Origin: a phage
Sequence record: PZ386946.1
Direction: 5' to 3' (one strand)
Length of the DNA stretch: 44,504 nt
In this document: piece by piece, positions 3,337 to 29,824 of the stretch
Position numbering within the stretch: the stretch's first letter is position 1
Layout: the number at the start of each line of letters is the position of its first letter
Translations under genes and position numbers: made by a program
The notes under the pieces: generated by a model
Databases searched by the model: none
Told to the model about the DNA's origin: nothing
Seen by the model: the letters and a program-made list of their open reading frames with translations, nothing else

Positions 3337-4414
3337 AATCCGCTATGACAGCGCAAAGTTTAAGGCAACAATCGACGAGAATGGATTCTTAGTCGACACT
3401 CCAGTGGTCGCACGTCTCGGTGTGCAGGTCTACTACATGGATGACGGCCGCACTGTCCGAGAGTTTCGCCCAGCGGAGGAGGTTTTCAAGGATGAATCTC
3501 TAGCCAGCTACCAGGGTAAGCCAATGACTCTTGACCATGTTTTCGTTAACTCAGAGAACGCTAAAGAGGTAGTAGTTGGCTCAGTTGCTGGAAAGGCAGA
3601 GCCATTAGGCAGCTCCGTGGTTGCTCCAATTGTTATTTACGATAACACAGCCATTAAGGAAGCTATGGCAGGTAACGCAAAGGAGTTATCCGTTGGATAC
3701 TCATCAGTTATTGATTACACCCCAGGTTGGGGTGACCCTGTTACTGGTGAGTACTTCCTTAAGTCTGAAAGTGAGCTATTCGACGTACCAGAAGGATGGC
3801 AGGAGTTCGACGCAATTCAGCGTGACATTAAAGTGAATCATCTCGCAATGGTATATCGCGGTCGCGCAGGTATTGCCAAATTGAATATGGACGGTGAGCA
3901 GGAAAACCCGTATACTACTGACGTTGATATCAATAAAGAGGATAAACAGGAAATGATTAAGATTAAACTCGACGGCGCGCAGGAATTCGAAGTCGCCCCG
4001 GAAATCGCTTCTCACATCGAAGCACTGAACGCAAAGGCTGACACTGCAATCGCAGAGCGTGATGCACTGAAAGCAAAAGTAGATGCAATGCCTTCTGAAA
4101 TCGAAGCTGCAGTTGCTAAAGCGAAAGCTGACGCTGATGCTCTTGCTGCTCTGGTAGCTGTTGCTGCTGAAGCTGGTGTAAAGGCTGATGGCCTGGATGC
4201 TAAAGGCATTAAAGTTGCCTACGTTAAAGAAATCTCCGGCCTTGATGTTAGTGAGAAATCTGATGCGTACATCGACGCGGCGTTCGACATTGCCAAAGAA
4301 TCTGATAAAATGGCTGAAGTACGTAAAGCGACTACCGCTTCCGACAAATCTGACAGCGCCGATGAGCCTAAGAAATTAGACCCACGTGCTCGTTTAGCTA
4401 AAATTAAGAAATAA
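3329..4414 (+). CDS. head morphogenesis protein (putative prohead protease/scaffold-like)
   Basis: 361 aa; overlaps portal stop; C-terminal Ala/Lys/Glu-rich predicted coiled coil typical of scaffolding proteins; function inferred from position. Confidence 0.45.
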   Translation: MSKIRYDSAKFKATIDENGFLVDTPVVARLGVQVYYMDDGRTVREFRPAEEVFKDESLASYQGKPMTLDHVFVNSENAKEVVVGSVAGKAEPLGSSVVAPIVIYDNTAIKEAMAGNAKELSVGYSSVIDYTPGWGDPVTGEYFLKSESELFDVPEGWQEFDAIQRDIKVNHLAMVYRGRAGIAKLNMDGEQENPYTTDVDINKEDKQEMIKIKLDGAQEFEVAPEIASHIEALNAKADTAIAERDALKAKVDAMPSEIEAAVAKAKADADALAALVAVAAEAGVKADGLDAKGIKVAYVKEISGLDVSEKSDAYIDAAFDIAKESDKMAEVRKATTASDKSDSADEPKKLDPRARLAKIKK

Positions 4415-7990: not shown

Positions 7991-8647
7991 ATGGCTCATT
8001 TATCAAACGGCACCCAGGTGTTCGTAGAAGGCTCTCGCGGAACTGCAATTGACGTAACTGCAATTTCCAACGCAGCTACCCCTGTTTTAACTGTATCTGA
8101 AGGATCCGGCCTGGCTAAGGGTGACTACCTTCTGTTTACTGCCTCCAGCTCAACTCTCCTGAGCGACAAACAGGTGCGAGTAACTGAAGTTTCTGGCACT
8201 TCGGTAACAGTTGAGGGAATTGACACAACCAATACCACAAAGTTCCCGGCTGGTTTAACTGGTGAAGTTGTTAAAATTACCTCATGGTTCGAGGTTCCGT
8301 GTGTTCAGGACGTATCTACTGACGGCGGCGAGCAGCAATTCGTTAACTTCCAATGCTTGTCAGATGACCGCGAGCAGCAGATTCCAACTTACAAGTCTGC
8401 GGTAACGAATACCTTCACCTTCGCTCATGAGTACACTAACCCGGTTTATCCTGTTCTGCGTAACTACGATGAGTCAGGCCAGGTTGTTGCTATTCGTCTG
8501 TTTGTACCTCGCGCTCAGGAAATGCGTTTGCAGTCCGGCACTATCGCTTTCAACGACACACCTACCATTGGCGTTAACGAAATCGAAACGGTATCCATCG
8601 CAGTATCAATTCGTGGTCGACTGTCCTCTGTGGCAGCAGAAGTTTAA
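7991..8647 (+). CDS. major tail protein (putative)
   Basis: 218 aa ORF followed by strong hairpin terminator 8653..8678; position upstream of chaperone and tape measure. Confidence 0.6.
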   Translation: MAHLSNGTQVFVEGSRGTAIDVTAISNAATPVLTVSEGSGLAKGDYLLFTASSSTLLSDKQVRVTEVSGTSVTVEGIDTTNTTKFPAGLTGEVVKITSWFEVPCVQDVSTDGGEQQFVNFQCLSDDREQQIPTYKSAVTNTFTFAHEYTNPVYPVLRNYDESGQVVAIRLFVPRAQEMRLQSGTIAFNDTPTIGVNEIETVSIAVSIRGRLSSVAAEV

Positions 8648-8652
8648 AACGC

Positions 8653-8678
8653 AAACCCTCTTCGGAGGGTTTTTTATT
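8653..8678 (+). terminator. rho-independent terminator after major tail gene
   Basis: hairpin AAACCCTC-TTCG-GAGGGTTT followed by TTTTATT. Confidence 0.7.
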
Positions 8679-8680
8679 GC

Positions 8681-8724
8681 ATGGCACTTTTTGCTAAAGC
8701 GTTTATCCAGCTTTACTGTATAGT
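8681..8724 (+). promoter_or_regulatory. bipartite motif copy (variant ATGGCACTTTTTGCTAAAG ... TATAGT)
   Basis: variant first half, conserved TATAGTTACTTCATAGAAACGA second half. Confidence 0.4.
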
Positions 8725-8757
8725 TACTTCATAGAAACGAAATGAGAGACTAAAGAA

Positions 8758-9006
8758 ATGAATGACGTTAAAAACATCATCAAGTTTGCTGCAGTTCTGG
8801 TTGCTTTTTATGCAGCAGTTCAGATTGTTAACCCAACTGGAGAGGCGGATGCAAATAGCAAGGCAAACAAATATACTGTTGAATTTGCCAAGGCTGAGCG
8901 AGCATGTCAGGATCTTGTGGGTGGTAAGGTTGACCAAATCATGAAATATGGCAAAGAGGTCTGCAAGGACTCAGCTGCTAAGATTGCAAAAGAAAACACT
9001 AAGTAA
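8758..9006 (+). CDS. small secreted/membrane protein (moron-like)
   Basis: 82 aa; N-terminal hydrophobic segment FAAVLVAFYAAVQIV consistent with signal peptide or anchor; own copy of the bipartite motif upstream. Confidence 0.45.
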   Translation: MNDVKNIIKFAAVLVAFYAAVQIVNPTGEADANSKANKYTVEFAKAERACQDLVGGKVDQIMKYGKEVCKDSAAKIAKENTK

Positions 9007-9044
9007 TAGAATACATACTCATAAACAATAAGGGGATCAACAAA

Positions 9045-9359
9045 ATGGCTAAATTCAAACTTTCACTGGCAGCACTTCCTGACTTTAAGCTGCCTGTAAA
9101 ATTCAAGCTGGCTAACGACAAGGATGTAGAGGTTATCTTTACAGTAAAGCACAAGAAGACCTCAGAGCTTCAGGAGTTACTACAGAAAGAAGACTTAAGT
9201 ACTAAAGAATTGATCATGGCAATCGCCTCTGATTGGGATCTGGAAGAAGAATTTAATGAAGAAAACGTCATCGAGTTTGCTGATTTATTCCCAGCATCTA
9301 CAGTTGCGCTTACTACCTCTTATATGCAGTCGCTTGCTGGTCAGCGAGTAAAAAACTAA
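9045..9359 (+). CDS. tail assembly chaperone (lambda G-like)
   Basis: 104 aa ORF immediately upstream of tape measure; ends ...VKN with slippery heptamer A_AAA_AAC at 9350..9356. Confidence 0.6.
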   Translation: MAKFKLSLAALPDFKLPVKFKLANDKDVEVIFTVKHKKTSELQELLQKEDLSTKELIMAIASDWDLEEEFNEENVIEFADLFPASTVALTTSYMQSLAGQRVKN

Positions 9360-9679
9360 AACGAGCGGTGTATCTACAGTACCAGTCAGAGCCAACAGAT
9401 GCAGAACTGGAAGCTATTGGGATGCGCCGCTCTGATTACGAAGATGAAGATCCTGAGGTTTTACACTTCGATGACAACATGATGAAGGCATGGGATATTT
9501 ATTGTTCAATGGCTACACAGTGGAGAGTCGGGGCTAACGGAGCCACAGGTCTAGATTACAACGTGCTAAATTTCCTCTTTAGAGTGTATAATGTTTCTGA
9601 AGAAGAATTGGTGCTCAGTGATTTGCGCATCCTTGAAGCTAAGGCTCTTGAGATGATGGATAACCTGAGAAAAAAATAA
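9045..9679 (+). CDS. tail assembly chaperone GT-like fusion via -1 programmed frameshift at 9350..9356
   Basis: ORF 9368..9679 lies in the -1 frame relative to 9045..9359 and is open back to the slippery site AAAAAAC at the G terminus; conserved G/GT arrangement in tailed phages. Confidence 0.5.
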
Positions 9680-9701
9680 CCCGCTTCGGCGGGTTTTCTA
9701 T
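9677..9701 (+). terminator. rho-independent terminator
   Basis: hairpin AACCCGC-TTCG-GCGGGTT followed by TTCTATT. Confidence 0.55.
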
Positions 9702-9714
9702 TATGGAGGCTTAG

Positions 9715-12699
9715 ATGGCAACAAATGAATTAGCCGGAATCACACTAGCCGTAGACGTCTCGCAAGTAGACAGGGGCACGCAATCCCTACAGAAGTTCAG
9801 GCAAGCTAACCAGCAAGCCGCTTCCGGCATTAGTGAATTCGTCAATGCTGAGCAGGTTGCTAAAAACCAGGCAAGAGACACAGCTCGCGCACTGGCTGAA
9901 CAGCAAGCATCTTTAGCTAAATTGCAAACAGCTATCGACCCAACGGCTGCAAAGTTCCGCAAGCTGCAAGAGGCTGCTGTAGGTCTGGATAAGGCATTCG
10001 CGGCTGGCGTAGTTCCTGATGAGGAGTTTTTCCGATTAGGTGAGGCTCTTGAAACGCAGAATGCAAAACTTGCTCGTTCACGTGCAGCGCTAACTGAGGA
10101 GGGGAGGGCGGCAGCCCAGGCCGCAAAGGATAAGGCAAAAGCAAAAGCTGAAGCGGATAGATTTATCGCATCACTTGAGCGACAGGCTCAAGCAGCGACA
10201 TTGACGCGAGAGGAGTACCTAAAGTTACAAGCGGCCCAGCTTGGAGTTAGTTCCCAGGCTGCACCAATCATTGACAGAATCGCCGACGCATCACAGAAGG
10301 CAAATACCCAGTTAATTGCTCAGAGTAAGGCTTTTCAGAAATCAGGATTAAGCGCCGGGCAATACAAGAATGCCATATCTCAACTACCAGCGCAGATTAC
10401 TGATATTGGCACGTCGCTTGCTGGCGGAATTCCGATTTGGCTTATTGCAATTCAGCAGGGCGGGCAGATCAAGGATGCATTTGGCGGTATTGGTAACACC
10501 TTTAGATTCGCGCTTGCAGCCTTAAACCCATTTAATGTAGCTGTTGGTGTTTTGGGTGGCGCACTTATTGCTCTTGGTGTTGGTGCAGCTCAGGCTGAAA
10601 GTGAATTCAGAGCATTAAACTCCGCAATTGCTTTCTCCAACAACTCTACAATCGCATCAATCTCGCAGGTTAGAGAGTTGGTTAGCTCTGTTTCTGATGC
10701 AACAGGTGCTACCAGAGGACTTGTGACTAGCATCGCAACAAGCCTTATTGAGCAAGGGAACCTTACGCTGACGCAGATTGACAAGATTACTAAATCGACC
10801 GCAAGATGGGCGCAGTTGACAGGTAAGGATGCGAAGGAGATTACTGGTTACTATAACCAGATTGCAAGCGACCCAATCCAGGGTTTAGTTGATTTGGATA
10901 AGCGCTTTAACTTCCTCACACAGGGGCAGTTGACGACAATCGAAAACCTGAGAAAGACAAAGGGAGAAGTTGAGGCCGTTACTGCTGCGATTGATATTTT
11001 CAGCAAGTCTCAGGAAGCCAACCTTAACGACATAGCTGCGCAGTTAACTCCGCTTGAGCTAGCCTGGAATGATTTCAGAAAGTACATCTCTGATATCTGG
11101 GATGCAATTAGTCGTAGAACGGTTGGGGCGCTAAACCTTTTTGTTGATGTAATCGCCGGAACGATTGAACAGATCAGGGTATTCATTAACCAGGGTGATG
11201 TTCTGATTGGTGAATTCGTAATTAGCGCAACTCAGGCATTGCAGAACATTCCTGGTCTTGATGGCGTTGGTGATGATGTTATCAAGGGGCAGCAGAAGAT
11301 TATCGATGCCGCCAAGAAGCAAAACCTTGAGCTAGAGAAGTCTATCAAGGAGCGAGATGCCAGAATCAGAGATGGAGAGCTTGGTTACGTTACTCGCAGA
11401 GAAAATCAGAATACCAATGAGCAGTCAGGTACTGATGAGGAATTTGCAAAAAGGAAGAAGGCTCTTCAGGATGAGCTTGATGCGATCAAGAAGAACAGGA
11501 AAGAAGAAAATAGTAGGGTTAAGGAGCAAAGAGATTTAACAATTGGTTATGAATCTGGCGTTCTGGCGCTTCAGGCTCAACTCAAGGTGCTTCAGGAAAA
11601 CAGGGATATTGGCGCAGTAATAAGCAATGAGCGCAAGCAGTATCTTCAGGAGGAGGCCAAATTCAGGATTCTTGAGCAGAGACAACTTGATGGCTCAATT
11701 ACCAAAGAGCAAGCAAGACTTCTCATTGAAAAGGATAAAGTTCTTGAGTTAGCCAGACAGAAGGCTGAGCTAGGTGATCAGATTGTTTTGCAGGAGCGAG
11801 CTAATAAGTTAGCTGAAGATAACCGCAAGAAGATTCTTCAGATTAACAATGAAGCAAGTAACATCGACTTAGGTGCTGGGTTATCATCTCGTGAGCAACA
11901 GAGGGCAAGAGAGATTCAGGCTCTTCAGTCCAATCAGGTTAATGCTGGCGGCTCTCTTGATGATGTTGATTTTCAGCAGTTGCTGGAAGCAAGAAAGGAA
12001 TACTACAAGCAGGAGGATAATCTTAGGTCAGACTGGCAATCCGGTGTAACATCCACTCTCGCCGACTTGACAGAGAAGTACACTGACTACAACCAGATTG
12101 CTAAGGACTTGACAGTTGCGGCATTCGACGGGATTACAGAGCAAATCACTAACCTTGTAACCACTGGTGAGGCCAATTTCAGGGAGTTCACAGCAAACAT
12201 CCTCAAAATGATTGCGAAGATTGCAACTCAGTTACTTTTGGTTAAGGCTATTGAATCTACAATCAAGAGTTTTGGTGGTGACACTGGTGCAGGTAGCGCT
12301 TTCGAGTCAATAAAATCAGCAATTGGTTTCGCTGGCGGCGGCTACACTGGTAATGGCGGGAAATACCAACCAGCAGGTACTGTGCACCGTGGTGAGTTTG
12401 TATTCACAAAAGAAGCGACAAGCCGAATCGGTGTAAAAAACCTTTACGCACTAATGAAGGGTTATGCAAACGGCGGCGCTGTTGGTGGTCCATCTGGTTA
12501 TGCAAATGGCGGATTGGTTTCTGGTGGTACAGATGTTAATGTTAGCGGCATCACTGTTAACGTTAATGGTGGCGTTGGTGGCGACCCAGAGCAAGCTAAG
12601 GCACTGCAAAGCGGAGTCAAGGCTATAGTAGCGGAAGAGATTGCTCAGTCCTTCCAGCAGGGTGGGCGTGCTTATGCTTACCTGCGCGGATTCAACTAA
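9715..12699 (+). CDS. tail tape measure protein
   Basis: 994 aa, extensive predicted coiled coil, Gly-rich C-terminal region, located between chaperone and M/L/K/I/J-like genes. Confidence 0.9.
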   Translation: MATNELAGITLAVDVSQVDRGTQSLQKFRQANQQAASGISEFVNAEQVAKNQARDTARALAEQQASLAKLQTAIDPTAAKFRKLQEAAVGLDKAFAAGVVPDEEFFRLGEALETQNAKLARSRAALTEEGRAAAQAAKDKAKAKAEADRFIASLERQAQAATLTREEYLKLQAAQLGVSSQAAPIIDRIADASQKANTQLIAQSKAFQKSGLSAGQYKNAISQLPAQITDIGTSLAGGIPIWLIAIQQGGQIKDAFGGIGNTFRFALAALNPFNVAVGVLGGALIALGVGAAQAESEFRALNSAIAFSNNSTIASISQVRELVSSVSDATGATRGLVTSIATSLIEQGNLTLTQIDKITKSTARWAQLTGKDAKEITGYYNQIASDPIQGLVDLDKRFNFLTQGQLTTIENLRKTKGEVEAVTAAIDIFSKSQEANLNDIAAQLTPLELAWNDFRKYISDIWDAISRRTVGALNLFVDVIAGTIEQIRVFINQGDVLIGEFVISATQALQNIPGLDGVGDDVIKGQQKIIDAAKKQNLELEKSIKERDARIRDGELGYVTRRENQNTNEQSGTDEEFAKRKKALQDELDAIKKNRKEENSRVKEQRDLTIGYESGVLALQAQLKVLQENRDIGAVISNERKQYLQEEAKFRILEQRQLDGSITKEQARLLIEKDKVLELARQKAELGDQIVLQERANKLAEDNRKKILQINNEASNIDLGAGLSSREQQRAREIQALQSNQVNAGGSLDDVDFQQLLEARKEYYKQEDNLRSDWQSGVTSTLADLTEKYTDYNQIAKDLTVAAFDGITEQITNLVTTGEANFREFTANILKMIAKIATQLLLVKAIESTIKSFGGDTGAGSAFESIKSAIGFAGGGYTGNGGKYQPAGTVHRGEFVFTKEATSRIGVKNLYALMKGYANGGAVGGPSGYANGGLVSGGTDVNVSGITVNVNGGVGGDPEQAKALQSGVKAIVAEEIAQSFQQGGRAYAYLRGFN

Positions 12700-12729
12700 T
12701 TAACGGGGCTTCGGCCCCTAAGGATTTTT

Positions 12730-18990: not shown

Positions 18991-19682
18991 TGGCTGATTA
19001 CGGAGCTTTTATAGATGTAAATGGAAATCCATTCATAACGCCACTATCAACACCATTCGCACTTTACTCAAAAGGAACAATCGCATCAGGTAATGTTAAC
19101 AACACCCAGTATGCTGATAGATATGTTGACATTCCTCTTAATGTTCCAGTGATAGCTTTTTGCAAAACGACAAACACAAACAATGGTACAGCTTTGTCAG
19201 CATTCACATTTAGGGAGGGATCCAACATTGGAAAGATCTACTTTCAGGGTGTTAATCCAGCAAATCAGGCGTTTGTTATGACGTACTACATATTTGCGAT
19301 ATTCCCACAGACTCTACCTGATTGGGGTATGGCTATATGGGATGCGCAGGGTAGATTGATACTTACAAATGAAACAAAGGTTCTTAGCGACCTAGCAACA
19401 ATTGGCACGCCAGGTTATCAATCTGGTGGTTTAAATATAGACGTAACATTGCAAGGAAGTTGGGCTGTGGTTCCAACAACCCTGGGGAATAGTCAGATAC
19501 AAATAGGAACGCTACCAACTGGTCAGCCAGTTATAACAAATGCGACAGCTGGAACATCCTGCAGGTACAACGGAGTGCAGACAAGAATAAACGCGCAGTC
19601 AACCCTTGGCTCTGGAAATGTGTTAAGCACAACAAATAACGGAAATGTAATAACAGCAATTAACACATCAGCATACGACTAA
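18990..19682 (+). CDS. hypothetical tail fibre-like protein
   Basis: ATG 18990 overlaps upstream stop; N-terminus MADYGAFIDVNGN paralogous to previous ORF; Thr/Asn/Gly-rich. Confidence 0.5.
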   Translation: MADYGAFIDVNGNPFITPLSTPFALYSKGTIASGNVNNTQYADRYVDIPLNVPVIAFCKTTNTNNGTALSAFTFREGSNIGKIYFQGVNPANQAFVMTYYIFAIFPQTLPDWGMAIWDAQGRLILTNETKVLSDLATIGTPGYQSGGLNIDVTLQGSWAVVPTTLGNSQIQIGTLPTGQPVITNATAGTSCRYNGVQTRINAQSTLGSGNVLSTTNNGNVITAINTSAYD

Positions 19683-29402: not shown

Positions 29403-29824
29403 TTTTGAATATCACAGACAAAGAAGATTACATTGAGTTTTACCCTGGTCCAGTTAAGTCATGCCCTAAAGAGGATGACGAACAAATCTTTTGCTCTGAC
29501 TGGGTTAAGTACAACTATCCGAAGATTGTTTATTGGCACACTGTTAATGAATCGATGAAGAGCATTGGTCAAGCAAGAAAAGACCAGGCTAAGGGGCTTC
29601 TCAAAGGCGTATCAGACTGCATGTTTTTGATACCTGAATCCGTGCGAGGAAGGTATCAATTTGGCGCAATAGAGATAAAGAGAGCAGGAAAAACTCAAGC
29701 AAGCCCAGTCAGCAGTGAACAGAAGTCCTTCCTGAAAAGCGTAAGAGAATCAGGAGGCTTCGCGGCTGTTGCCTACGGTCGCGAGGGTTTTCTGGCAGCA
29801 TTTAAAGAAATGATTTCAAAATAG
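29399..29824 (+). CDS. VRR-NUC domain nuclease (putative)
   Basis: PD-(D/E)XK-like D...EIK (SDCMFLIPE...AIEIKRAG); non-ATG start (TTG 29399 or 29405, GGAGG RBS); overlaps helicase stop. Confidence 0.55.
   Translation: MILNITDKEDYIEFYPGPVKSCPKEDDEQIFCSDWVKYNYPKIVYWHTVNESMKSIGQARKDQAKGLLKGVSDCMFLIPESVRGRYQFGAIEIKRAGKTQASPVSSEQKSFLKSVRESGGFAAVAYGREGFLAAFKEMISK

What the first reader, a model, noticed from the sequence alone, without database searches (positions are those of the whole stretch)
9350..9356. Slippery heptamer A_AAA_AAC at the end of the G-like chaperone, giving a GT-like fusion by -1 frameshift
The 9045..9359 ORF ends ...V K N stop. The heptamer AAAAAAC spans its last two sense codons (AAA AAC), and the downstream ORF 9368..9679 is in the -1 frame and open back to that site. 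This reproduces the conserved G/GT programmed frameshift of tail assembly chaperones. It independently supports the chaperone and tape-measure calls. A frameshift at the extreme 3' end of G is a somewhat unusual position.
Basis: partly seen in the sequence, partly recalled or inferred. Interest (0 to 1): 0.4.

Follow-up and report, generated by a model that had tools for sequence, protein, structure and literature searches.

The report
Tail chaperone G/GT programmed frameshift site
This is the usual programmed -1 ribosomal frameshift that lets a T1-like E. coli phage make a short and a long tail-assembly chaperone from one gene pair; it looks real on comparative evidence, and is ordinary and already annotated in near-identical phages.

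Summary
ORF 9045..9359 ends GTA AAA AAC TAA. A_AAA_AAC (9350-9356) is in X_XXY_YYZ phase, and the -1 frame is open from 9284 to 9679 with no stop.

The upstream ORF is Pfam Phage_TAC_4 and the -1 ORF is DUF1799. They lie between the major tail protein and tape measure genes of a Drexlerviridae (T1-like) phage.

In 93 related loci, T1 included, a T ORF of about 105 codons follows in the -1 frame, except in three records with a one-A-shorter run. Across 43 unique A6C sequences the heptamer is frozen at synonymous sites. The -1 peptide L-K-R-A-V-Y-L is conserved from the first codon after the slip, and there is no conserved start codon.

A 70-nt hairpin (9363-9432, -32 kcal/mol) begins 6 nt after the heptamer. 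It is the most stable 72-nt fold on the window's + strand and is depleted in synonymous change.

Slipping at the last two sense codons, directly before the stop, is the rule in this family. It is not an oddity of this phage.

A 90.5%-identical phage (OzMSK) and Klebsiella phage Sweeny already annotate this frameshift. No protein-level evidence exists here. Low novelty.

The parts
7991..8647 (+). Major tail (tube) protein gene; upstream boundary of the chaperone cassette
   Evidence: Pfam Phage_tail_3 1.4e-68; phrog_584 major tail protein 1.7e-88
9045..9359 (+). G-like tail assembly chaperone ORF, 104 aa, 11.8 kDa. This is the product of standard decoding, ending V-K-N-stop.
   Evidence: Pfam Phage_TAC_4 (PF08748) 1.4e-33 over residues 1-104; phrog_569 and phrog_17368; mass
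9350..9356 (+). Slippery heptamer A_AAA_AAC, in phase with the G frame (P-site AAA, A-site AAC)
   Evidence: Sequence. Invariant at all synonymous positions in 43 unique related sequences, while neighbouring Arg and Gly codons use 4 codons each. The same motif is present in phage T1.
9357..9359 (+). 0-frame stop codon TAA directly abutting the heptamer. Its TA is also read as part of the first -1 frame codon, CTA (Leu).
   Evidence: A stop directly after the heptamer in all 55 A6C loci (T1 included) and both G_GGA_AAC loci surveyed.
9357..9362 (+). 6-nt spacer (UAAAAC) between the heptamer and the first paired base of the hairpin
   Evidence: structure. A spacer of 5-9 nt is the usual distance for 3' stimulators (PMC5009743).
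9363..9432 (+). Predicted 70-nt irregular hairpin: a 13-bp lower stem, GAGCGGUGUAUCU with GGGAUGCGCCGCUC, plus a 10-bp upper stem. Candidate 3' frameshift stimulator.
   Evidence: MFE -32.4 kcal/mol, z = -4.1, 0 of 200 shuffles as stable. The most stable of 22,216 72-nt windows on the + strand of the window. Only 2 of 50 paired columns vary among 9 unique clade sequences, against 131 of 565 outside (p = 5e-4). At third codon positions the figures are 2/16 against 102/189 (p = 0.0014). No Rfam match.
9356..9679 (+). T segment: the -1 frame read from the re-read base 9356 (CTA...), 107 codons plus stop. Present only as the C-terminal half of the fusion GT. GT = join(9045..9356, 9356..9679), 211 aa, 24.3 kDa, expected junction ...QRVKN|LKRAVY...
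   Evidence: Pfam DUF1799 (PF08809) 4.6e-16; phrog_17368 positions 109-210. L-K-R-A-V-Y-L is conserved from codon 1 after the slip, with synonymous variation. Mass.
9678..9695 (+). Terminator-like GC hairpin plus T-run between T and the tape measure gene (context only, not part of the frameshift signal)
   Evidence: An equivalent terminator is annotated in T1 and Sweeny.
9715..12699 (+). Tape measure protein gene; downstream boundary of the cassette
   Evidence: Pfam TMP_2 3.1e-49 and Tape_meas_lam_C 4.7e-16; phrog_24 2e-232

Best explanation
Most ribosomes translating the tail chaperone gene 9045..9359 stop at TAA 9357 and release the 104-aa chaperone G. A minority slip back one base while tRNA-Lys and tRNA-Asn sit on AAA and AAC of A_AAA_AAC (9350-9356). 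Those ribosomes then read CTA AAA CGA GCG... and continue to 9679, giving a 211-aa fusion GT with the whole of G at its N-terminus and a DUF1799 'T' domain at its C-terminus.

The slip is probably promoted by the 70-nt hairpin 9363-9432. It starts 6 nt after the heptamer, so it would sit at the mRNA entrance of a ribosome positioned on the heptamer. The abutting stop codon may also contribute.

By analogy with lambda gpG/gpGT, G and the G part of GT coat the tape measure protein (9715..12699), and the T part recruits the major tail protein (7991..8647). The frameshift would then fix a high G:GT ratio, and neither protein would end up in the virion.

What is shown here: sequence anatomy, homology, comparative conservation, predicted RNA stability and synonymous-site depletion. 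What is inferred: the slip itself, its efficiency, the role of the hairpin and the stop codon, and the chaperone mechanism.
For: (1) Anatomy. The heptamer is in phase and the -1 frame is open with no intervening stop.

(2) Identity. G is Phage_TAC_4 and T is DUF1799. They lie between the Phage_tail_3 tube protein and the tape measure protein. phrog_17368 aligns G to positions 1-107 and T to 109-210 of one family.

(3) Uniqueness. Of 44 in-phase XXXYYYZ heptamers in the window, only this one opens a long -1 ORF, 107 codons against 32 or fewer.

(4) Conservation. tblastn of the fusion finds 1138 phage records, and every full-length row listed is split into two pieces. Of 93 loci examined:
- 55 have A_AAA_AAC plus a stop, T1 included;
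- 2 (Pseudomonas PS-1 and a Ralstonia phage) have G_GGA_AAC plus a stop, a different heptamer at the same place;
- 27 Webervirus loci have GCA AAA GTY/GCC TAA;
- 6 Rogunavirus loci have GCA AAG GTC TAA.
The last two groups carry the tetramers A_AAA and A_AAG, which are known to shift in E. coli when a stimulator is present (PMC4066793).

(5) Synonymous freezing. In 43 unique A6C sequences the three heptamer codons are always NNA-AAA-AAC. The first of them encodes Val or Ala (GTA, GCA), and Thr (ACA) in L037. Arg at G-4 and Gly at G-6 each use four codons.

(6) The -1 peptide L-K-R-A-V-Y-L is conserved from the very first codon after the slip, with synonymous variation. The first possible start codon in that frame lies anywhere from 11 to 149 nt downstream depending on the clade.

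(7) Hairpin. It has a 6-nt spacer and -32 kcal/mol, ranks first of 22,216 windows, and is depleted in synonymous change. Other clades carry differently shaped stable hairpins at the same 6-nt spacing, in the top 0-0.7% of local windows in nine Tempevirinae-type loci and the top 0.1% in PS-1.

(8) Independent annotators reached the same reading. OzMSK (90.5% identical here) and Klebsiella phage Sweeny carry joined 'frameshift product' CDSs. The Skenny announcement states it in print (PMC6763657).
Against: No protein-level evidence for GT exists for this phage, and the searches made here found none for any T1-like phage.

A_AAA_AAC is not among the most efficient motifs in E. coli, because heterogeneous ZZN codons shift less well (PMC4066793). 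That is compatible with a low GT fraction.

In this clade a GTG at 9368 lies 8 nt after the stop, and the OzMSK annotators mention an independent RBS. Some free T made by re-initiation therefore cannot be excluded.

The hairpin has no compensatory covariation. There is only one one-sided change (A-U to G.U at 9364) in the window clade, and none in the T1-type hairpin. Several lineages (Rogunavirus, CS01, L062) show no comparable structure, so a 3' structure is not universal in the family.
Confidence: 0.85

Rival explanations
1. No frameshift: T is made as a separate 103-aa protein by termination-reinitiation or weak independent initiation at GTG 9368, 8 nt after the G stop codon. The heptamer is incidental.
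For: GTG 9368 is in frame and close to the stop. In the sister sub-clade the sequence before it is AGAGGG, a plausible Shine-Dalgarno, and the OzMSK record notes an 'independent RBS'. Many GenBank records annotate T as a separate ORF.
Against: The GTG exists only in the window's clade. Elsewhere the codon is GTT, GTC or GTA, and the first start codon in the frame is 50-149 nt downstream. The residues upstream of 9368 (L-K-R-A) are nevertheless conserved as amino acids with synonymous variation. In the window GAG lies only 2 nt from the GTG, a poor spacing. This reading does not explain the freezing of the heptamer's synonymous sites, or the replacement of A_AAA_AAC by another canonical heptamer, G_GGA_AAC, in distant relatives.
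Confidence: 0.07
2. The frame change happens at the RNA level. RNA polymerase stutters on the A6 run and adds one A to a fraction of transcripts, which are then translated normally into GT.
For: The site is a homopolymeric A run. Three public relatives differ by exactly one A in this run, which shows the run is length-unstable at some level, either in sequencing or in replication.
Against: Productive slippage by bacterial RNA polymerase is described for runs of about 9 A or T (PMC5009743), and this run has 6. Relatives use G_GGA_AAC, GCA AAG GTC or GCA AAA GTT at the same position, none of which is a long homopolymer. The C at position 7 is invariant, and a hairpin 6 nt downstream fits a ribosomal mechanism.
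Confidence: 0.04
3. Artefact or decay: G and T are one gene split by a sequencing error or mutation in this genome, or T is a non-functional remnant.
For: Homopolymer runs are error-prone. Three related records have a one-base-shorter run.
Against: The same two-frame arrangement with the same A6C-stop is present in 55 of the 93 loci examined, T1 included. The -1 relationship holds in all but the three A5 records. T shows purifying selection and matches a Pfam family.
Confidence: 0.02

Closest known systems
Phage lambda gpG/gpGT tail assembly chaperone frameshift (Levin et al. 1993; Xu, Hendrix & Duda 2004, 2013, 2014; summarised in PMC5009743)
   Same: The gene pair lies between the major tail and tape measure genes. 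[quoted passage not shown] The presumed roles are also the same: G binds the tape measure protein and T recruits the tube protein.
   Different: The heptamer is A_AAA_AAC rather than G_GGA_AAG. The slip is on the last two sense codons, with the stop directly abutting, so GT contains all of G. A strong 3' hairpin is predicted here. The Pfam families are different (Phage_TAC_4 / DUF1799). Homology to lambda G and T was not tested directly.
Annotated tail-chaperone frameshifts in T1-like phages: Escherichia phage vB_ecoS_OzMSK (PQ659294), Klebsiella phages Sweeny (MK931443) and Skenny (PMC6763657)
   Same: These are the same gene family and the same position. OzMSK is 90.5% identical over this region and has the identical GTAAAAAACTAA site and hairpin arms.
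   Different: Sweeny and Skenny (Webervirus) have GCA AAA GTT TAA, which is an A_AAA tetramer and not a heptamer. All of these are computational annotations, not experiments.
IS1 insA-insB' frameshift on A_AAA_AAC
   Same: It uses the identical slippery heptamer, which is proven to shift -1 in E. coli (PMC4066793).
   Different: The proteins are unrelated (a transposase). IS1 has no established stimulator, whereas a strong hairpin is predicted here.
E. coli dnaX and IS3/IS911-type -1 frameshift cassettes (A_AAA_AAG plus 3' stem-loop or pseudoknot)
   Same: The heptamer is lysine-codon based and is followed at a short spacing by a stable 3' structure. They are bacterial -1 PRF systems that depend on the slippery tRNA-Lys.
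   Different: No conserved upstream Shine-Dalgarno-like stimulator is seen here, because the codons upstream vary freely. The A-site codon is AAC (Asn), not AAG.

Membership tests
G/GT-type tail assembly chaperone programmed frameshift (lambda paradigm; Xu et al. 2004) | Two consecutive ORFs located between the major tail protein gene and the tape measure protein gene | tested here: met
   Tube protein 7991..8647, G 9045..9359, T to 9679, tape measure protein 9715..12699. One extra 82-aa ORF (8758..9006) lies between the tube gene and G.
G/GT-type tail assembly chaperone programmed frameshift (lambda paradigm; Xu et al. 2004) | The second ORF is in another frame (-1) and is open back across the end of the first, with no stop in between | tested here: met
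   The -1 frame is open from 9284 to 9679.
G/GT-type tail assembly chaperone programmed frameshift (lambda paradigm; Xu et al. 2004) | A slippery sequence in the correct phase within the overlap | tested here: met
   A_AAA_AAC at 9350-9356, in phase. The motif is proven to shift in E. coli in IS1 (PMC4066793).
G/GT-type tail assembly chaperone programmed frameshift (lambda paradigm; Xu et al. 2004) | The arrangement and the slip site are conserved in diverged relatives | tested here: met
   93 loci surveyed. The heptamer is frozen at synonymous sites, and a different canonical heptamer occupies the same place in Pseudomonas and Ralstonia phages.
G/GT-type tail assembly chaperone programmed frameshift (lambda paradigm; Xu et al. 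2004) | The second ORF lacks its own conserved translation start | tested here: met
   The first start codon in the frame is 11 to 149 nt downstream depending on the clade, and amino-acid conservation begins at the slip. Caveat: the window's own clade has a GTG at 9368.
G/GT-type tail assembly chaperone programmed frameshift (lambda paradigm; Xu et al. 2004) | A fusion protein is actually made, at a low ratio to G, and is required for tail assembly | not testable with these tools
   This needs a Western blot, mass spectrometry, a reporter assay or phage genetics.
Pfam Phage_TAC_4 (PF08748) / DUF1799 (PF08809) | Score above the curated gathering threshold | tested here: met
   116.2 bits against a cut-off of 21.1, and 59.3 bits against a cut-off of 26.
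Canonical -1 PRF cassette (heptamer, 5-9 nt spacer, 3' RNA structure) | A stable 3' structure beginning 5-9 nt after the heptamer | tested here: met
   Hairpin 9363-9432 with a 6-nt spacer. It has -32 kcal/mol and z = -4.1, ranks first of 22,216 windows, and shows synonymous-site depletion. The structure is predicted, not probed.
Canonical -1 PRF cassette (heptamer, 5-9 nt spacer, 3' RNA structure) | The structure is supported by compensatory base changes | tested here: inconclusive
   No pair changes on both sides in the T1-type hairpin. The window clade has only one one-sided change. The sequences are too similar within each hairpin type, and the hairpins are not homologous between types.
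Transcriptional slippage site | A long homopolymeric A/T run (about 9 or more in bacteria) | tested here: not met
   The run is 6 A. Relatives have non-homopolymeric motifs at the same site. The criterion is taken from PMC5009743.

The most novel reading that the evidence does not exclude
The stop codon directly abutting the slip site may be a selected part of the signal, not a coincidence. In this T1-like family the 0-frame stop always follows the heptamer immediately, or follows the tetramer by one codon. Competition between release-factor action and -1 slippage, together with a hairpin 6 nt away, may therefore set the G:GT ratio. The family also interchanges heptamer and tetramer shift sites and non-homologous hairpins at one fixed position. 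That would make it a natural comparative series for how bacterial -1 frameshift signals are rebuilt.
Probability: 0.3. Interest if true: 0.35.

Novelty: already known. Interest (0 to 1): 0.15.

Why it matters
The main value is for annotation. The region should be annotated as G (9045..9359) plus a joined GT CDS, join(9045..9356, 9356..9679), and not as two independent genes.

Many public T1-like records get this wrong. T1 RefSeq gp39 starts at an internal ATG. The herni, tonn and RCIP0058 records omit T altogether. Three records carry a one-A-shorter run that mis-extends G.

The family-wide 'slip at the last sense codons, then stop, then hairpin at 6 nt' layout could be a convenient model for bacterial -1 frameshift signals. 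The layout comes in three interchangeable motif types. It adds nothing conceptually new to the lambda G/GT paradigm.

Tried and rejected
(1) Heptamer significance on its own was rejected. In-phase XXXYYYZ heptamers are common by chance, 44 in the window. Only the long -1 ORF and the conservation make this one special.

(2) Covariation support for the T1/Tempevirinae-type 32-nt hairpin was not found. There were no compensatory changes, and 86% of cells paired, which is the same as in the shuffles.

(3) The Rfam scan of 9250-9750 gave nothing on the hairpin. It returned only sub-threshold hits anchored on the terminator near 9680-9699.

(4) There is no evidence for an upstream Shine-Dalgarno-like stimulator of the dnaX or IS911 kind. 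The codons upstream of the heptamer vary freely at synonymous sites.

(5) A universal hairpin was not found. Rogunavirus, CS01, L020, L062 and L050 lack a stable structure at the 6-nt spacing.

(6) A fold of 9330-9420, spanning the heptamer, showed no significant structure (z = +1.07). The signal is strictly downstream.

(7) Literature searches found no experimental demonstration of GT in T1-like phages. They found only annotation statements.

(8) The large protein-database searches and structure prediction were not run, because the answer did not depend on them.

Full report
**1. Observation**

The sequence at 9340-9370 reads ...GGT CAG CGA GTA AAA AAC TAA AAC GAG CGG TGT....

- In the frame of ORF 9045..9359, the last sense codons are GTA (9348-50), AAA (9351-53) and AAC (9354-56), followed by TAA (9357-59).
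- AAAAAAC at 9350-9356 is therefore in the X_XXY_YYZ phase, A_AAA_AAC.
- The -1 frame read from 9356 (CTA AAA CGA GCG GTG TAT...) runs without a stop to 9677-9679. It is open for 24 codons upstream, back to 9284.

**2. Is it more than chance?**

The heptamer alone is not.

- A crude gene set of 65 ORFs (13,512 codons) contains 44 in-phase XXXYYYZ heptamers, about the 1/256 per codon expected.
- AAAAAAC occurs six times on the + strand.

What is unique is what follows. The heptamer at 9350 opens a -1 ORF of 107 codons. The next longest opened by any other in-phase heptamer is 32 codons, and most are under 10.

**3. What the genes are**

| Coordinates | Match |
|---|---|
| 9045..9359 | Pfam Phage_TAC_4 (tail assembly chaperone), 1.4e-33, end to end |
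| -1 segment to 9679 | DUF1799, 4.6e-16 |
| 7991..8647 | Phage_tail_3 tube protein |
| 9715..12699 | Tape measure protein (TMP_2 + Tape_meas_lam_C) |

- PHROG family phrog_17368 (213 positions) aligns G to positions 1-107 and the -1 segment to 109-210, so that family is built from fused GT proteins.
- The window is a Drexlerviridae (T1-like) coliphage. It is 88-92% identical over 8700-9800 to BEK1-1, JulesPiccard, IME542, OzMSK and others.

**4. Comparative evidence**

A tblastn search with the conceptual fusion finds 1138 phage records. Every full-length match listed is split into two pieces, meaning two reading frames.

I examined 93 loci: the window, 12 GenBank records including T1, and 80 IMG/VR contigs.

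| Site at the end of G | Loci | Who |
|---|---|---|
| A_AAA_AAC followed directly by TAA or TGA | 55 | Includes T1 (GCA AAA AAC TAA) |
| G_GGA_AAC followed directly by TAG or TGA | 2 | Pseudomonas phage PS-1, a Ralstonia phage |
| GCA AAA GTY/GCC TAA | 27 | Webervirus |
| GCA AAG GTC TAA | 6 | Rogunavirus |
| One A fewer (A5C) | 3 | L001, L057, L074 |

- In the three A5C records G runs on and T falls in the +1 frame. These are most simply homopolymer sequencing errors.
- In all other loci a T ORF of about 105 codons follows in the -1 frame.
- The Webervirus and Rogunavirus variants keep the tetramers A_AAA and A_AAG. These are two of the six tetramers that shift -1 in E. coli when a stimulator is present, and A_AAG is the best of them (PMC4066793).

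**5. Selection on the nucleotides**

This analysis used 43 unique A6C-type sequences.

- The codon before the lysine is always NNA. It is GTA or GCA there, and ACA in L037, so the base is kept while the amino acid changes.
- The lysine codon is always AAA and the asparagine codon always AAC.
- Two and four codons upstream, Arg uses CGC/CGA/CGG/CGT and Gly uses GGT/GGG/GGC/GGA.

This is the signature of selection on the heptamer itself.

**6. Selection on the -1 frame from the slip site onward**

- The -1 codons immediately after the heptamer encode L-K-R-A-V-Y-L-x-Y-Q in essentially all sequences.
- They show free synonymous variation: Arg CGG/AGG/CGC/CGA, Val GTT/GTG/GTC/GTA, Tyr TAT/TAC.
- The first possible start codon in that frame is 11 nt downstream only in the window's clade (GTG 9368). 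Elsewhere it is 50-149 nt downstream.

Translation of this frame must therefore begin upstream, in G. That argues against independent initiation as the general mechanism.

**7. A 3' stimulator**

Folding 9357-9456 gives a long irregular hairpin at 9363-9432.

- It has a 13-bp lower stem (GAGCGGUGUAUCU with GGGAUGCGCCGCUC), plus an upper stem.
- MFE is -32.4 kcal/mol with z = -4.1, and none of 200 dinucleotide shuffles is as stable.
- Its first paired base is 6 nt after the heptamer, inside the 5-9 nt spacing typical of -1 frameshift stimulators (PMC5009743).
- Among all 22,216 overlapping 72-nt windows on the + strand, 9362-9433 is the single most stable (-32.0 against a mean of -12.9, sd 4.5).

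Among nine unique sequences of the window's clade:

| Columns | Variable | p (Fisher) |
|---|---|---|
| Hairpin paired columns | 2 of 50 | 5e-4 |
| Outside the hairpin (G + T) | 131 of 565 | |
| Third codon positions, paired | 2 of 16 | 0.0014 |
| Third codon positions, outside | 102 of 189 | |

The one change in the main stems (9364, A to G) keeps pairing, A-U becoming G.U.

Other clades have hairpins of different shape at the same spacing.

- Nine Tempevirinae-type loci carry a compact 32-nt GGGCGG...CCGCCC hairpin, in the top 0-0.7% of local 40-nt windows. T1 has the same GGGCGG...CCGCC sequence, but its fold was not ranked.
- PS-1 carries a 70-nt hairpin in the top 0.1%.
- Webervirus carries two consecutive hairpins.

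Limits of this evidence:

- Rogunavirus, CS01, L020, L050 and L062 show nothing comparable.
- The T1-type hairpin has no compensatory covariation.
- No Rfam family matches.

The hairpin in this window is well supported by stability, position and synonymous-site depletion. It is still a prediction.

**8. Mechanism proposed**

This is standard tandem slippage.

- With tRNA-Lys on AAA (P site) and tRNA-Asn on AAC (A site), both re-pair one base back, on AAA and AAA.
- The next codon read is CTA (9356-58).
- Products are G (104 aa, 11.8 kDa) and GT (211 aa, 24.3 kDa), with junction ...QRVKN|LKRAVY....
- If only the P-site tRNA slipped before Asn decoding, the junction would be ...VKK|LKR...

A_AAA_AAC is a proven -1 shift site in E. 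coli (IS1; PMC4066793). Its heterogeneous A-site codon makes it a moderate site and not a top-efficiency one. That suits a rare GT.

The chaperone roles are inferred from lambda (PMC5009743) and were not tested here. In lambda, G and the G part of GT coat the tape measure protein, T recruits the tube protein, and neither is found in virions.

**9. The 'unusual position'**

In other datasets the slippery site lies on average 26 nt (SEA-PHAGES) or 36 nt (Xu et al. set) before the 0-frame stop (PMC10274946). A distance of 0 nt is therefore at the extreme.

Within this family it is the invariant arrangement, across enterobacterial, Pseudomonas and Ralstonia phages and across two different heptamers. 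It is a family trait.

Whether the abutting stop contributes to slippage, as a 'shifty stop', is an open and testable question of modest interest.

**10. Rivals**

- **Re-initiation at GTG 9368.** It cannot be excluded as a minor extra route in this clade, and the OzMSK annotators mention an RBS. It fails as a general explanation (sections 5 and 6).
- **Transcriptional slippage.** This is unlikely. The run is 6 A against about 9 for bacterial RNA polymerase, and relatives use non-homopolymeric motifs.
- **Sequencing error or pseudogene.** This is excluded by the conservation.

**11. Novelty**

- Escherichia phage vB_ecoS_OzMSK is 90.5% identical over this region, with the identical site. It is already annotated with a joined 'frameshifted product of tail assembly chaperone'.
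- Klebsiella phage Sweeny is annotated likewise.
- The Skenny genome announcement states that T1-like phages have a frameshift analogous to lambda G/GT (PMC6763657).

The finding is therefore a correct recognition of a known, annotated feature. The added details are the family-wide survey, the synonymous-site freezing and the exceptionally stable hairpin at 6 nt. These are supporting evidence and do not amount to a new kind of system.

**Verdict**

- Observation: confirmed.
- Interpretation: supported.
- Confidence that a -1 PRF produces GT here: about 0.85.
- Confidence that the hairpin is its stimulator: lower, about 0.6-0.7.
- Novelty: already known.
- Interest: 0.15.

Noticed in passing
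window 9670-9714: The T ORF itself ends AGA AAA AAA TAA. That places a second in-phase slippery heptamer, A_AAA_AAA (9670-9676), directly before a stop. A -1 slip there would read 12 more codons, through the terminator hairpin, to TAG 9712-9714. That TAG sits immediately before the tape measure ATG (9715) and in its frame. The A7 run is kept in the window's clade (all end AAATAA) but is absent in T1, so it is probably chance.
   Followed up: partly
window 9678-9695; T1 record 19508-19527 (L092:5509-5528); Sweeny L004:1242-1261: An intrinsic-terminator-like hairpin plus T-run sits between the chaperone pair and the tape measure gene. It is annotated as a terminator at the equivalent place in T1 and Sweeny. 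A conserved, presumably leaky, terminator inside the tail operon might lower tape measure expression relative to the chaperones.
   Followed up: no
window 8758-9006 (preceded by terminator-like hairpin 8653-8672): An 82-aa ORF with a hydrophobic N-terminal segment (phrog_22925, unknown function, no Pfam hit) is inserted between the tube protein gene and G. It is present in the window's close relatives (OzMSK, 2725-N35). It is absent from T1, herni, tonn and Sweeny, where G follows the tube gene after about 100 nt. It looks like a clade-specific moron.
   Followed up: partly
L001 (MN840485 Escherichia phage 2725-N35) 900-960; L057 (IMGVR_UViG_2974632794); L074 (IMGVR_UViG_2974785742): Three public relatives have GTAAAAACTAA (A5) instead of A6. 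G then reads on for 13-17 extra codons and T falls in the +1 frame. These are most likely homopolymer sequencing errors that produced wrong gene models. Alternatively they are natural variants needing a +1/-2 shift.
   Followed up: partly
T1 NC_005833 (L092:5340-5507); herni L002; tonn L003; RCIP0058 L009: Public annotation of this locus is inconsistent. T1 RefSeq gp39 is a 55-aa ORF from an internal ATG. The herni, tonn and RCIP0058 records have no T gene at all. RefSeq labels G and T 'tail length tape measure protein'.
   Followed up: yes
one search hit list (MG065688 'Campylobacter phage A110b', PP134917 'Pseudomonas phage PsgS01F'): Records attributed to Campylobacter jejuni and Pseudomonas syringae hosts are about 90% identical to this E. 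coli T1-like phage over 8700-9800. PsgS01F has the same record length (44,679 bases) and the same score against this window region as E. coli phage UALMA_PCEc3. This suggests mislabelled hosts or contaminant phages.
   Followed up: no
window about 29715-29800, 12647-12725, 3687-3767 (+ strand): After the frameshift hairpin, these are the next most stable 72-nt RNA folds on the + strand (-29 to -30 kcal/mol). They were not examined.
   Followed up: no
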